From the IMG/VR virus record IMGVR_UViG_2880395615_000008: a DNA stretch of 64,000 bases; one strand, written 5' to 3'. How positions within the stretch are numbered: the first letter of the stretch is position 1; every line of letters begins with the position of its first letter. A program made the position numbers. This DNA is from a virus (Duplodnaviria; Heunggongvirae; Uroviricota; Caudoviricetes). Positions 31,601-34,600 of this stretch are shown here, piece by piece.

Positions 31601-34600
31601 TTCATTACGATATGGGAATTCCCATATCGGGTAAAAACGGTTTGCGGTAAAGCGAGAGTTAAGTAGAATTGCTGCGGGTGCTTGAGGCTATCTGCCTCGG
31701 GCATGAACACCAACGGCAGATAGAGAAAAGCCCCAGTTAACATTACGCGTCCGGCAAGACGCTTAACATTAATCTGAGGCCATATCTATGCTCTACACAC
31801 GTAGGTTAGCCTCTTACGTGCCGAAAGGCAAGGAGAAGCAGGCTATGAAGCAGCAAAAGGCGATGCTAATCGCCCTGATCGTCATCTGTTTAACCGTCAT
31901 AGTGACGGCACTGGTAACGAGGAAAGACCTCTGCGAGGTACGAATCCGAACCGGCCAGACGGAGGTCGCTGTCTTCACAGCTTACGAACCTGAGGAGTAA
32001 GAGACCTGGCGGGGGAGAAATCCCTCGCCACCTCTGATGTGTCAGGCATCCTCAACGCACCCCACTTAACTCGCTTCGGCGGTTTTTTGTTGTTTATTTT
32101 CGGTGAGCGTGATGCATCTGGTTGTACCGATGTGGCTGGCTGATTCTGTTATTCAGGTGGTTTATTGCTGTTGATTGGCATGTCTTCACGGCTAGAATCG
32201 AGGCTCTTAAGTAGCGCGCAGGGATAAGAGGGATGGCCCCCATAAGGGGAGGTGTTTATAGTTCATGGGATTTTTGTTATGAACGATAAGGAATTAATTG
32301 CTGCGCTTTCTATACCAGGTAATTATGAAGTAATAGTTCTTGGGAATGGTGAGTTTATCGTAATGCCATTGCCATCTGATGTTATTCTGATCAGCAAAGA
32401 ATCGCATGCGGATTCGGTCAGTTACTTCAGCATTAAAAGAGACTAGATTATAATGCTGTAGTAAAGCCAGCCTGAACAACTGGCGTCTGTCGCACCATTA
32501 CGAGGATAGTAGTGGTGCATTACAAGAAACTTAACAATTCTGATAATTCAGCCGTCTTTGCCAGCAGGCACGGGCGGTGTTCTCATGCATTCAAATCTGA
32601 CTGGTTCCAGCATGACCCATGCACTGAAGAACAGGCCGAATGGCTGATTCAGTGCTACCGCAGACGTGGTTACGAGTTTCAGAAAGATCTCAGCTTCGAT
32701 CGTCGTCACTGGATAATCTCCGCCAGGCTCCCTTATTCCGAACGCCCACCGCGTCCGTCCCGCACATTCCAGCAGCGCATCTGGAGGTAACGTGCGGGTA
32801 TTACTTCGACCTGTTCTGGTACCGGAACTCGGTCTGGTTATCGTTAAGCCAGGCCGTGAATCAATGTCAGTATTCCATAACGGCAGAATATTGGTGGAGC
32901 CGGAACCGAAAAACATGCGCGGTCTGCCGTCCGGAGTCGTTCCTGCCGTTCGCCAGCCGCTGGCAGAGGATAAAACATTACTGCCATTTTTCAGCGATGA
33001 GCGGGTTATTCGTGCAGCAGGTGGTGCAGGTGCACTGTCTGACTGGTTATTACGTCACGTGAAATCCTGCCAGTGGCCACACGGCGATTATCATCACAGC
33101 GAAACAGTCATTCACCGTTATGGTACCGGCGCGATGGTGTTGTGCTGGCACTGCGACAACCAGCTGCGCGACCAGACATCAGAATCACTCGATCAACTTG
33201 CTCAGCAGAATCTGGTTGCCTGGATGATTGATGTCATCCGTCACGCAATAAGCGGTACGCAGGAGAGGGAGTTATCGCTGGCCGAATTATCCTGGTGGGC
33301 GGCCTGCAATCAGGTGGTGGATGCACTACCTGAGGCAGTAGCGCGTCGTTCGCTGGGATTACCAGCGGAAAAAATCCGCTCCGTATACCGTGAGAGTGAC
33401 ATCGTACCGGGAGAACAGACAGCCATCAGCATACTGAAGCAGCGCACAAAAAATATTGCGCTGCCACTTCACGTCCACCAGCAACAAAATCCACCACAGA
33501 AAAAAACGGTTGTCAGTATCGCCGTTGATCCGGAGTCTCCTGAATCGTTCATGAAACGACCTAAACGTCGCCGCTGGGTAAATGAGAAATACACACGCTG
33601 GGTAAAGACACAGCCGTGTGCGTGTTGTGGTAAGCCAGCCGACGATCCCCATCACCTGATTGGTCATGGTCAGGGCGGAATGGGGACAAAATCTCACGAT
33701 ATTTTCACGCTACCGCTGTGTCGGGAGCATCACAACGAGCTTCATGCGGATCCGCTGGCGTTCGAAGAAAAGCATGGTTCTCAGGTTGATTTAATTTTTC
33801 GTTTTCTTGATCACGCCTTTGCAACTGGCGTGCTTGGGTAAAAGAGGTGACTGATGCTCATAGATTTGGTTTTACCTTACCCGCCGACGGTGAACACTTA
33901 CTGGCGACGCCGTGGCAGCACATATTTTGTATCAAAAGCCGGGGAGCGTTATCGCCGGGCAGTGGCGCTTATTGTTCGCCAGCAGCGACTGAAATTAAGC
34001 CTGTCCGGACGGCTGGCAATAAAAATTATTGCAGAGCCACCGGATAAGCGCCGCCGTGACCTGGACAATATTCTGAAAGCACCGCTGGATGCGCTGACGC
34101 ACGCGGGGTTGTTAATGGACGATGAGCAGTTTGATGAAATCAATATTGTACGTGGAAAGCCAGTATCTGGTGGACGTCTGGGGGTGAAGATTTACCCCAT
34201 AATGCTTGAAGGGCAGGTCAAAAAATGAAACTGGAAGATTTACCGAAATACTACTCCCCAAAATCCCCTGGCCTGACCGATGCATCGGCCTCAACGTCAA
34301 AAGATGCGCTGAGTATCACTGATGTGATGGCCGCGCAGGGCATGACACAGAATCGGGCTGAGATGGGGTTTTCTGCGTTCCTTGGGAAAATGGGCATTAG
34401 TATGAATGACAGAGAGCGGGCAACAGAATTGCTGACAGAATATGCACTCAGTCGGTGTGATCGCGTGGCGGCGTTAAGAAAACTCCCGGCAGAAATAAAA
34501 CCGGCAGTGATGCGTATTATGGCTTCGTATGCGTTTGAAGATTATGCCCGTAGCGCGGCGAGCAAAAAACAGTGCCCCTGCTGTCACGGAAAAAAATTTA

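What the first reader, a model, noticed from the sequence alone, without database searches (positions are those of the whole stretch)
31676..32092. hok/mok type I toxin locus embedded in the nin-like region
The 51-aa product is a Hok/Gef-family peptide (identical to the HokD/RelF sequence as I recall it), with a mok-like overlapping frame and hok-type leader motifs. It probably acts as a stability or stress module for the prophage.
Basis: partly seen in the sequence, partly recalled or inferred. Interest (0 to 1): 0.55.

Follow-up and report, generated by a model that had tools for sequence, protein, structure and literature searches.

The report
Intact prophage hok/mok/sok toxin-antitoxin cassette
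This is a complete, already-annotated copy of the well-known hok/sok "host-killing" toxin-antitoxin cassette in an E. coli O157:H7 prophage; it is ordinary, and its nearest relative (hokW-sokW of the Shiga-toxin phage) has been studied experimentally.

Summary
Window 31676-32092 (+) is a full hok-type mRNA. It encodes a 51-aa Hok/Gef peptide (31845-32000; Pfam 1.2e-23) that is 51/51 identical to K-12 HokD/RelF. An in-frame 70-aa mok leader ORF starts at 31788. The Rfam hok-leader model RF01794 scores 111.7 bits (threshold 59). The fold pairs the 5' tac element with the 3' fbi element (z = -6.1).

On the minus strand a 71-nt Sok antisense RNA (31796 to 31726) is predicted. It has a free 5' tail, a long hairpin and a U-run. 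Its promoter (TTGCCT-17-TAACCT) aligns with the R1 sok promoter.

The DNA is 100% identical to many O157:H7 chromosomes, where RefSeq already calls the gene hokD. It is 94.8% identical to the annotated, experimentally validated mokW/hokW/sokW locus of phage 933W/Sp5. K-12 hokD is truncated upstream of 31831, so this copy is intact rather than a relic.

Function is inferred by analogy: Sok-controlled Hok translation, probably released when the prophage is induced. The finding is already known and of low interest.

One side observation may be worth following. The 20 nt that encode the Sok 5' tail are hypervariable, and they differ between copies sharing a genome.

The parts
31642..31669 (+). Putative hok/mok promoter: -35 TTGCGG (31642-31647), 16-nt spacer, -10 TAGAAT (31664-31669)
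   Evidence: Read from the sequence. The -10 lies 6 nt before the transcript start, the same spacing as TATGAT in the R1-type locus. The columns are 80-90% conserved in 68 variants. The simple consensus scan did not flag it because the -35 matches only 3 of 6.
31676..32092 (+). Full-length mok-hok mRNA (about 417 nt; start accurate to within 1 nt)
   Evidence: The Rfam model starts at 31676. Homology to R1 hok mRNA +1 GGCGCUUGAGG (numbering from PMC9841398). MFE -166 kcal/mol, z=-6.14. 95.6% of predicted pairs are canonical across 66 variants, against about 40% when partners are slid.
31676..31687 (+). tac (translational activator) element, GGGUGCUUGAGG
   Evidence: It pairs with fbi in the full-length fold and with ucb in the Rfam consensus (open) structure. 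R1 functional bases G4/C5/U6 correspond to 31680-31682 (PMC9841398).
31728..31736 (+). ucb / anti-SD box (AAGCCCCAG)
   Evidence: It pairs with the mok SD region CUGAGGC in the closed fold and with tac in the open fold. There is a compensatory G-C to C-G change at pair 31736-31774 in 5 variants. It corresponds to R1 A70/G71/C72 (PMC9841398).
31776..31779 (+). mok Shine-Dalgarno GAGG
   Evidence: It lies 8 nt before the mok ATG and is conserved in essentially all variants and in distant genera. It corresponds to the R1 GAGG motif (G105/A106; PMC9841398).
31788..32000 (+). mok leader ORF (70 aa, in frame with hok)
   Evidence: ORF list. It has the same coordinates as the annotated mokW of 933W and 64/70 identity to MokW. 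The ATG is conserved in 66 of 66 variants.
31781..31800 (.). Hypervariable patch (Sok 5' tail on the minus strand, Sok target and first mok codons on the plus strand)
   Evidence: Entropy is 0.6-0.76 bit per column against less than 0.2 in neighbouring leader. There are 15 haplotypes. 7 of 20 nt differ from 933W while the flanks are identical.
31726..31796 (-). Predicted Sok antisense RNA (71 nt): 15-16-nt free 5' tail, long hairpin (31780-31730), 3' UUUU
   Evidence: The coordinates are those of the annotated sokW of 933W carried over through a gap-free alignment. The K-12 sokC 5' end also maps to 31796. Fold -28.6 kcal/mol; z about -4.1 for the slightly longer 31722-31797 segment.
31803..31831 (-). 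Putative sok promoter: -35 TTGCCT (31831-31826), 17-nt spacer, -10 TAACCT (31808-31803)
   Evidence: It sits in alignment columns homologous to the R1-type TTGCGC-17-TATCCT. Window 31801-31845 is identical to 933W, whose sokW promoter was shown by mutation to be needed for antitoxin activity (PMC8621323). Other variants have TTGACC and TAATCT. The consensus scan did not flag it because the -10 matches 3 of 6.
31809..31813 (+). dcb (downstream complementary box) GCCUC
   Evidence: It pairs with the mok SD GAGGC in the Rfam consensus (open, translatable) structure. The pair columns are almost invariant.
31831..31835 (+). hok Shine-Dalgarno AGGAG
   Evidence: It lies 9 nt before the hok ATG. It is invariant in 69 sequences and conserved across genera.
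31845..32000 (+). hok (hokD) toxin ORF, 51 aa
   Evidence: RefSeq annotates it as hokD, WP_000813254.1.
32008..32029 (+). GC-rich stem-loop, the likely protective 3' end of the processed (truncated, translatable) mRNA
   Evidence: Predicted helix. There are one-sided changes that keep pairing (G-U, A-U and G-C at 32012-32025). The role is inferred from R1, where the last stem-loop of Tr-hok protects against exonucleases (PMC9841398).
32050..32062 (+). fbi (fold-back inhibitory) element CCUCAACGCACCC
   Evidence: 12 base pairs plus one bulge with 31676-31687. The columns are more than 90% conserved.
32070..32088 (+). Weakened intrinsic terminator (CUCGC-UUCG-GCGGU, then U6)
   Evidence: -5.0 kcal/mol here against -12.8 for the consensus CCCGC-UUCG-GCGGG. 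The terminator scan did not detect it.

Best explanation
This is an intact member of the hok/mok/sok type I toxin-antitoxin family, the full-length version of the E. coli hokD locus. It is carried as a self-contained cassette in the early-right (nin-like) region of a Qin-like lambdoid prophage integrated at ompW in E. coli O157:H7.

Shown by sequence: a weak promoter would make a roughly 417-nt mok-hok mRNA. Its 5' tac element is locked to the 3' fbi element, and its mok ribosome-binding site is sequestered by the ucb box.

Inferred from R1 and hokW: slow 3' trimming removes fbi. The leader then refolds (tac pairs with ucb, the mok SD pairs with dcb) and mok becomes translatable. Ribosomes translating mok open the hok start, and the 51-aa Hok peptide inserts into the inner membrane and kills or arrests the cell.

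A convergent promoter inside the mok-hok junction makes a 71-nt unstable Sok RNA. Its free 5' tail pairs with the mok start region, blocks mok translation and triggers duplex cleavage.

The most likely biological role follows the 95%-identical hokW-sokW locus. Sok keeps Hok off in the lysogen, Sok is lost on prophage induction, and Hok then contributes to membrane damage and phage release. A secondary addiction or exclusion effect is possible. Here the cassette lies in the sense orientation inside the PR operon, so read-through transcription colliding with the sok promoter is a plausible trigger. That last step is my inference and is untested.
For: Toxin: Pfam HOK_GEF 1.2e-23, PHROG 251 at 2.8e-33, 51/51 identity to K-12 HokD.

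Leader: RF01794 at 111.7 bits against 59. tac/fbi pairing and z=-6.14. 95.6% canonical pairs against about 40% in slid controls, with 8 pairs changed on both sides. Examples are 31690-31721 A-U to G-C and 31736-31774 G-C to C-G.

Sok: hairpin plus U-run. The promoter is homologous to the R1-type sok promoter. The ends coincide with the annotated sokW and with K-12 sokC.

Intactness: K-12 hokD aligns only from 31831 onward, whereas this copy has the whole leader. The locus is 94.8% identical to 933W mokW/hokW/sokW. Its leader is nearly identical (one upstream difference, none within 31676-31780) and window 31801-31845 is identical.

Experiments on hokW-sokW: the toxin is toxic and SokW neutralises it. 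Neutralisation depends partly on RNase III and Hfq. SokW is lost and HokW is made on RecA-dependent induction. Deleting the locus halves phage release (PMC8621323).

Context: the cassette is co-oriented with the replication genes and Q. Cassette boundaries are sharp.
Against: No expression data for this copy were available, so both promoters and both transcript ends are inferred. The generic promoter/terminator scan flagged none of them. The terminator in this allele is weak (-5.0 kcal/mol). This Hok differs from HokW at 4 C-terminal residues, and Sok differs in its 5' tail, so the hokW results carry over by analogy only. In 933W the cassette sits at a different place in the phage genome, not in the nin region, so the trigger may differ. 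Chromosomal hok loci tested earlier did not give post-segregational killing (cited in 10.1101/2025.08.07.668861). The prophage may be defective, since a neighbouring DUF968 gene is a pseudogene in the reference strain.
Confidence: 0.9

Rival explanations
1. It is a hok-only relic without regulation, like K-12 hokD/relF: a leftover toxin ORF with no promoter, leader, mok or Sok.
For: The peptide is identical to K-12 HokD, and the K-12 locus is truncated. The consensus scan reported no antisense promoter.
Against: This copy has the full leader with a strong Rfam hit, tac/fbi pairing, a conserved mok ATG and SD, and a Sok gene coinciding with the annotated sokW. Homology with K-12 stops at 31831, so K-12 is the truncated form and this is the complete one.
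Confidence: 0.03
2. The sequence is intact but the cassette is physiologically silent. It is a selfish passenger maintained by recombination among prophages, and in normal conditions it neither stabilises the prophage nor affects induction.
For: Earlier work found that chromosomal hokA, hokB and hokC loci did not mediate post-segregational killing or rifampicin-induced killing (cited in 10.1101/2025.08.07.668861). The cassette is very common and multi-copy: 4727 of 5426 E. coli genomes, up to 10 places per genome. It has sharp mosaic boundaries. The terminator is weakened in this allele.
Against: All regulatory elements are conserved with compensatory changes, which argues for ongoing selection on the RNA structure. 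The 95%-identical hokW-sokW locus has measurable phenotypes (PMC8621323). R1 hok from a single chromosomal copy is lethal without Sok (PMC9841398).
Confidence: 0.2
3. Its main role is defence. It acts as an abortive-infection or superinfection-exclusion module: an incoming phage shuts off host transcription, Sok decays, and Hok kills the cell before the invader matures.
For: R1 hok/sok reduces T4 plating efficiency and plaque size (Pecota and Wood 1996, as cited in PMC8621323 and PMC10305079). PHROGs files the family under 'moron, auxiliary metabolic gene and host takeover'. hok genes are enriched about four-fold in prophages (10.1101/2025.08.07.668861).
Against: The same preprint found no enrichment of hok next to known defence systems. 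The only experiment on a prophage copy showed a positive effect on the carrier phage and did not test exclusion (PMC8621323). No defence assay exists for hokD-type cassettes.
Confidence: 0.2

Closest known systems
mokW/hokW/sokW of Stx2 phage 933W / Sakai prophage Sp5 (AF125520.1; Takada et al. 2021, PMC8621323)
   Same: 94.8% DNA identity over 403 nt. mok, hok and sok have identical positions and lengths: 70 aa, 51 aa and 71 nt. The leader is nearly identical and window 31801-31845 is identical. mok is in frame with hok in both. Both reside in O157:H7.
   Different: 7 of 20 nt differ in the Sok 5' tail and target patch. The Hok C-terminus is AVFTAYEPEE here against AVFVDYESEK. The 3' ends differ: 933W lacks the UUCG terminator. 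The locations differ: the nin-like region of an ompW prophage here, and the far end of the 933W genome on the opposite strand there.
E. coli K-12 hokD (relF) in cryptic prophage Qin
   Same: The 51-aa peptide is identical. DNA identity is 97.4% from 31831 to 32101. The downstream neighbourhood has the same synteny, a DUF968 gene then antiterminator Q, and the prophage has the same dicB/DicF-type background.
   Different: In K-12, relBE abuts the gene and everything upstream of 31831 is missing: the hok promoter, tac, ucb, the mok start, the Sok gene and most of the sok promoter. This copy has all of them.
hok/sok (parB) of plasmid R1, the paradigm system
   Same: The architecture and element order are the same: tac, ucb, mok SD, mok AUG, dcb, hok SD, hok, 3' stem-loop, fbi. 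Spacing is similar (mok AUG at +113 against +116; hok AUG at +170 against +174). The 5' end is conserved (GGGUGCUUGAGG against GGCGCUUGAGG). The sok promoter sits in homologous columns (PMC9841398).
   Different: Hok is only about 44% identical (value given for HokW in PMC8621323). R1 mok is in a different frame from hok (58-nt offset by the PMC9841398 numbering), while here it is in frame. The first leader hairpin is shorter here, and the Sok hairpin is longer. R1 is carried on a plasmid and has demonstrated post-segregational killing.
E. coli K-12 hokC(gef)/mokC/sokC
   Same: mok is in frame (69 aa against 50 aa, with a shared stop). The annotated sokC 5' end maps to the same position, 8 nt inside mok. 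Overall identity is about 81%.
   Different: The Sok hairpin is 18 nt shorter, so sokC is 59 nt. The 3' UTR is different, and the K-12 locus has IS186 next to it.

Membership tests
hok/mok/sok type I toxin-antitoxin family | Small hydrophobic Hok/Gef toxin peptide of about 50 aa | tested here: met
   Pfam PF01848 at 82.9 bits against a cut-off of 22. PHROG 251 at 2.8e-33. NCBIfam Hok subfamily hit at 48.5 bits, below its curated cut-off of 73.
hok/mok/sok type I toxin-antitoxin family | Upstream mok leader ORF with its own SD, starting about 57 nt before hok and reading across the hok start | tested here: met
   ATG at 31788, SD GAGG at 31776-31779, 70 aa. The ATG is conserved in 66 of 66 variants. 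The frame relative to hok varies, with 58 in frame and 8 with a stop overlapping the hok ATG.
hok/mok/sok type I toxin-antitoxin family | Long-range 5'-3' tac/fbi pairing that closes the full-length mRNA | tested here: met
   12 bp plus a bulge between 31676-31687 and 32050-32062 in the MFE, z=-6.14. The pairs are maintained in 64-65 of 66 variants.
hok/mok/sok type I toxin-antitoxin family | Alternative pairings of the mok SD with ucb (closed) and dcb (open), and of tac with ucb (open) | tested here: met
   Closed form in the MFE. Open form in the Rfam consensus structure. Canonical pairs are 95.6% and 77.7% against about 40% when slid.
hok/mok/sok type I toxin-antitoxin family | Match to the curated covariance model of the hok leader (Rfam RF01794) | tested here: met
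   111.7 bits against a gathering score of 59, full-length 1-157, on the + strand.
hok/mok/sok type I toxin-antitoxin family | Cis-encoded antisense Sok gene (promoter, free 5' tail, hairpin, U-run) overlapping the mok translation start | tested here: met
   Sequence level only. TTGCCT-17-TAACCT, start about 31796, hairpin -28.6 kcal/mol, UUUU. It coincides with the annotated sokW and sokC. The generic promoter scan was negative.
hok/mok/sok type I toxin-antitoxin family | Both RNAs are actually transcribed; the mRNA is trimmed at its 3' end; the duplex is cleaved by RNase III; Hok is toxic | not testable with these tools
   These are shown only for the 95%-identical hokW-sokW (PMC8621323) and for R1 (PMC9841398).
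hokD (relF) locus as defined in E. coli K-12 | HokD peptide sequence | tested here: met
   51/51 identity. RefSeq names the gene hokD in O157:H7.
hokD (relF) locus as defined in E. coli K-12 | Location immediately downstream of relBE with no hok leader or sok | tested here: not met
   There is no relBE here and the full leader is present. Homology with K-12 begins at 31831. This is the untruncated form of the same gene.

The most novel reading that the evidence does not exclude
The 20-nt patch that encodes the Sok 5' tail and its target (31781-31800) may act as an address label under diversifying selection. In that case each of the many hok/sok cassettes co-resident in one E. coli genome would be controlled only by its own Sok, and induction or loss of one prophage would release only that prophage's Hok. 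The evidence does not exclude this. The patch is by far the most variable part of an otherwise near-identical cassette. Co-resident copies differed in every genome examined. Predicted non-cognate tail/target duplexes are 10-20 kcal/mol weaker than cognate ones. The alternative is simple relaxed constraint, because any change here preserves cis-complementarity automatically and the Mok sequence is known not to matter. I did not find this discussed in the papers I read, but older hok-family literature was not searchable.
Probability: 0.35. Interest if true: 0.4.

Novelty: already known. Interest (0 to 1): 0.1.

Why it matters
As a finding it matters little. The gene is already annotated as hokD in RefSeq O157:H7 genomes, and hok genes are already known to be enriched in prophages. 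The mechanism is textbook, and a 95%-identical sister locus has been characterised. It has three modest uses. First, it shows what the complete ancestor of the truncated K-12 hokD/relF looked like. Second, it places a hok/sok cassette in sense orientation inside the PR operon, which offers a simple testable trigger for the unexplained induction-dependent loss of Sok reported for hokW-sokW. Third, the hypervariable Sok tail could explain how up to ten near-identical cassettes coexist in one cell without cross-silencing.

Tried and rejected
(1) The generic sigma-70 and terminator scan found only a probably spurious + strand site at 31763-31792, plus an unrelated terminator-like site at 31550. 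It missed both real candidate promoters and the terminator because each has a weak hexamer or a short stem. Promoter assignment therefore rests on homology and spacing.

(2) I looked for hokW in the nin region of 933W (12-24 kb) and found nothing. The locus is at 58.4-58.8 kb instead.

(3) The NCBIfam Hok models hit below their curated cut-offs, which is uninformative for so short a peptide.

(4) I tested whether the UACG motif at Tyr47 sits in a tRNA-like hairpin suitable for TadA editing. No local hairpin is predicted (-0.6 kcal/mol), and the A is unpaired at a junction in the full-length fold. Only the presence of the motif can be claimed.

(5) The small MFE hairpin at 31791-31805 is not supported, because many variants have non-canonical pairs there.

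(6) Conservation of the coding region in my alignment cannot be used as evidence. The 80 IMG/VR loci were selected for 100% peptide identity.

(7) The FRIK2455 annotation carries over to the window only for about 18920-37235 at 98.9-99.3% identity. The late region differs.

(8) Some genome hits to the sok-promoter motif in unrelated MAGs lack a Hok ORF (17 of 83) and were discarded as chance matches.
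Full report
**Observation**

The region 31676-32092 was read directly.
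- The + strand carries a 51-aa ORF at 31845-32000 (MKQQKAMLIALIVICLTVIVTALVTRKDLCEVRIRTGQTEVAVFTAYEPEE).
- An ATG at 31788 lies 57 nt upstream in the same frame and gives a 70-aa product.
- The peptide matches Pfam HOK_GEF at E=1.2e-23 and PHROG 251 'MokW-like host killing' at 2.8e-33.
- That hit is on the + strand and the model ends at the hok AUG. The family named 'sok' therefore actually describes the sense hok leader, not the antisense RNA.

**Origin and context**

- The 551 bp around the locus are 100% identical to many E. coli O157:H7 chromosomes, where RefSeq annotates hokD (WP_000813254.1).
- Related cassettes occur in 4727 of 5426 complete E. coli genomes, with a median of 2 and a maximum of 10 places per genome.
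- In strain FRIK2455 the locus lies in a lambdoid prophage integrated at ompW.
- It sits between the replication genes and RusA/antiterminator Q, and is co-oriented with them. 'Nin-like region' is therefore a fair description.
- The prophage is Qin-like: it has dicB and DicF, and DUF968 and Q lie downstream.
- The FRIK2455 annotation carries over to window 18920-37235 at 98.9-99.3% identity.

**RNA anatomy, sense strand**

The 417-nt transcript folds at -166 kcal/mol with z=-6.14.
- Its first 12 nt (GGGUGCUUGAGG) pair with CCUCAACGCACCC at 32050-32062. This is the tac/fbi lock.
- In the same fold, the mok SD (GAGG, 31776-31779) is sequestered by AAGCCCCAG (31728-31736), the ucb or anti-SD box.
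- The Rfam consensus gives the alternative open form: tac pairs with ucb, and the SD GAGGC pairs with GCCUC at 31809-31813 (dcb).
- The bases shown by saturation mutagenesis to matter in R1 have direct counterparts. R1 G4/C5/U6, A70/G71/C72 and the GAGG SD correspond to 31680-31682, 31729-31731 and 31776-31779. Spacing is nearly the same, with mok AUG at +113 against +116 and hok AUG at +170 against +174 (PMC9841398).

I tested these structures on 66 unique homologous cassettes from IMG/VR.
- 95.6% of closed-form pairs are canonical, against 34-41% when partners are slid by 1-2 nt.
- Eight pairs change on both sides, for example 31690-31721 A-U to G-C and 31736-31774 G-C to C-G.
- The open form scores 77.7%, against about 40% in slid controls.
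- One caveat: these loci were selected for an identical Hok peptide, so conservation of the coding region is not independent evidence.

**Antisense strand**

The minus strand reads TTGCCT (31831-31826), then 17 nt, then TAACCT (31808-31803).
- About 7 nt further on, an RNA would begin. It would have a 15-16-nt unstructured 5' tail, a long hairpin (31780-31730) and a run of U residues.
- The fold is -28.6 kcal/mol, with z about -4.1.
- The generic promoter scan missed this site because the -10 matches only 3 of 6 positions.

Three independent comparisons support the assignment.
- The hexamers lie in the same alignment columns as TTGCGC-17-TATCCT of an R1-type plasmid locus.
- The annotated K-12 sokC 5' end, 8 nt inside mokC, maps to window 31796.
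- The annotated 71-nt sokW of phage 933W maps through a gap-free alignment to 31796-31726. Likewise mokW and hokW map to 31788 and 31845.

**Relation to known loci**

- 933W mokW/hokW/sokW is 94.8% identical over 403 nt.
- The leader is nearly identical (one upstream difference, none within 31676-31780), and window 31801-31845, which contains the sok promoter, is identical.
- That locus (Sakai prophage Sp5) is a proven type I toxin-antitoxin system (PMC8621323):
  - HokW is toxic.
  - SokW expressed from its own promoter neutralises it, partly through RNase III and Hfq.
  - SokW disappears and HokW is made on RecA-dependent induction, about 1 h before the endolysin.
  - Deleting the locus delays growth arrest by about 40 min and halves phage release.
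- K-12 hokD aligns only from 31831 to 32101 at 97.4% identity, with relBE replacing everything upstream.
- This refutes the 'hok-only relic' alternative. The window holds the complete form of which K-12 hokD/relF is a truncation.
- Hok enrichment in prophages is already published (10.1101/2025.08.07.668861).

**Cassette nature**

Similarity to other phages begins at about 31629-31664 and ends at about 32086-32101, with unrelated flanks. This is what a mobile 'moron' module looks like, and PHROGs classifies the family that way.

**The mok frame**

Here, as in 933W and K-12 mokC, mok is in frame with hok. In R1 the offset is 58 nt by the PMC9841398 numbering. Among the 66 variants, 58 are in frame. 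The other 8 have a 19-codon mok whose TGA overlaps the hok ATG. This fits the R1 conclusion that what matters is translation up to the hok start, not the Mok protein itself.

**Mechanism and role**

The molecular mechanism is the R1 paradigm, and I hold it with high confidence. The steps are the closed full-length mRNA, 3' trimming, refolding, mok-coupled hok translation, and the Sok block.

The biological role is inferred. The best-supported analogy is hokW-sokW, where Hok is released on induction and assists lysis and phage release. The main rivals are listed here.
- A silent selfish passenger. Chromosomal hok loci did not give post-segregational killing in older work.
- An abortive-infection or exclusion role, since R1 hok/sok inhibits T4.

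Because this copy is sense-oriented within the PR operon, read-through transcription colliding with the convergent sok promoter is a plausible and testable trigger. That is my inference.

**Peculiarities of this allele**

The terminator stem carries two substitutions, giving -5.0 kcal/mol against -12.8 for the consensus. Since 933W lacks that terminator altogether and is still functional (PMC8621323), this does not argue for inactivity.

**Side observation**

The 20 nt at 31781-31800 flank the invariant mok ATG and encode the Sok 5' tail. They are the most variable part of the cassette.
- There are 15 haplotypes, with 0.6-0.76 bit per column against less than 0.2 in neighbouring leader.
- This locus and hokW, which coexist in O157:H7, differ at 7 of these 20 nt but nowhere else in the 5' leader (31676-31780) or in 31801-31845.
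- Shigella flexneri SFBU1023 has three hokD/W-type copies with three different tails. E. coli ECMA0423 has two copies with two tails. Tandem pairs in other genera also differ there.
- Predicted cognate tail/target duplexes are -28 to -32 kcal/mol, while most non-cognate ones are -6 to -20.
- This could reflect selection for non-cross-reacting pairs, or merely relaxed constraint. I could not decide between these.

**Verdict**

This is a complete, already annotated member of a thoroughly studied family, so interest is low.

Noticed in passing
window 31781-31800 (both strands); also L086, L125, L155, L158, L108, L121, L144, L112, L128: A hypervariable 20-nt patch encodes the Sok 5' tail and its target. 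It has 15 haplotypes among 66 near-identical cassettes. Copies sharing a genome always differed (O157:H7 hokD-type against hokW, S. flexneri with 3 copies, E. coli ECMA0423 with 2, and tandem pairs in other genera). Non-cognate tail/target duplexes are predicted to be 10-20 kcal/mol weaker than cognate ones.
   Followed up: partly
window 31788-31847 and alignment A1: The mok reading frame relative to hok is not conserved. 58 of 66 variants are in frame (70 aa). The other 8 have a 2-nt deletion that gives a 19-codon mok whose TGA stop overlaps the hok ATG.
   Followed up: yes
window 32070-32088: This allele's intrinsic terminator is weakened by two substitutions (CUCGC-UUCG-GCGGU, -5.0 kcal/mol) compared with the consensus CCCGC-UUCG-GCGGG (-12.8 kcal/mol). 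One base of the extended fbi region is also deleted. In my set the allele is shared only with L032.
   Followed up: partly
window 31676-31850 (+): Rfam family RF01794, named 'sok antitoxin', matches the sense strand and ends at the hok start codon. It therefore models the hok mRNA leader and not the antisense Sok RNA. A strand-naive reading of the hit would place the antitoxin on the wrong strand.
   Followed up: yes
window 31983-31986: The Tyr47 codon UAC followed by G forms the UACG motif used by TadA for A-to-I editing, which would recode Tyr to Cys. A recent preprint states that hokD mRNA is edited at this position. No tRNA-like hairpin was predicted around it.
   Followed up: partly
window 31495-31629: A 34-aa hydrophobic ORF (MSDDISLAMEGALAVIAVVGVYCLVVFLMDRLGN) is annotated as hypothetical and has no NCBIfam or PHROG hit. 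It is followed by a perfect 22-bp palindrome, CGATATGGGAATTCCCATATCG (31608-31629; hairpin -14.5 kcal/mol, no U-run). The palindrome lies exactly at the left homology boundary of the cassette in many phages.
   Followed up: partly
window 10412-10534 (-), 24511-24562 (-), 36759-36959 (+): There are strong Rfam hits to isrC (150 bits), DicF (75 bits, next to dicB) and STnc100 (148 bits, in the late-operon leader downstream of Q). isrC lies outside the ompW prophage.
   Followed up: no
phage record PP818812.1: 'Actinobacillus phage vB_Apl-pPE4' carries a hok cassette 96% identical to the E. coli one. This suggests an E. coli-type lambdoid phage with a doubtful host label.
   Followed up: no
L034, L038, L079 (alignment A1): IMG/VR also holds the K-12-like truncated hokD arrangement, whose upstream sequence is unrelated to the hok leader (L034, L038; by inference the relBE-hokD form, though I did not check for relBE). 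L079 is a third form in which the leader is replaced by unrelated sequence with an insertion before the hok SD.
   Followed up: no
L086 (933W 58.4-58.8 kb): In 933W the hokW cassette is not in the nin region. It lies on the minus strand near the end of the genome record, beyond the gene L0134 (hypothetical protein, 49025-57445) and far from the PR-to-Q region. The same cassette therefore occupies quite different transcriptional contexts in different prophages of one strain.
   Followed up: partly
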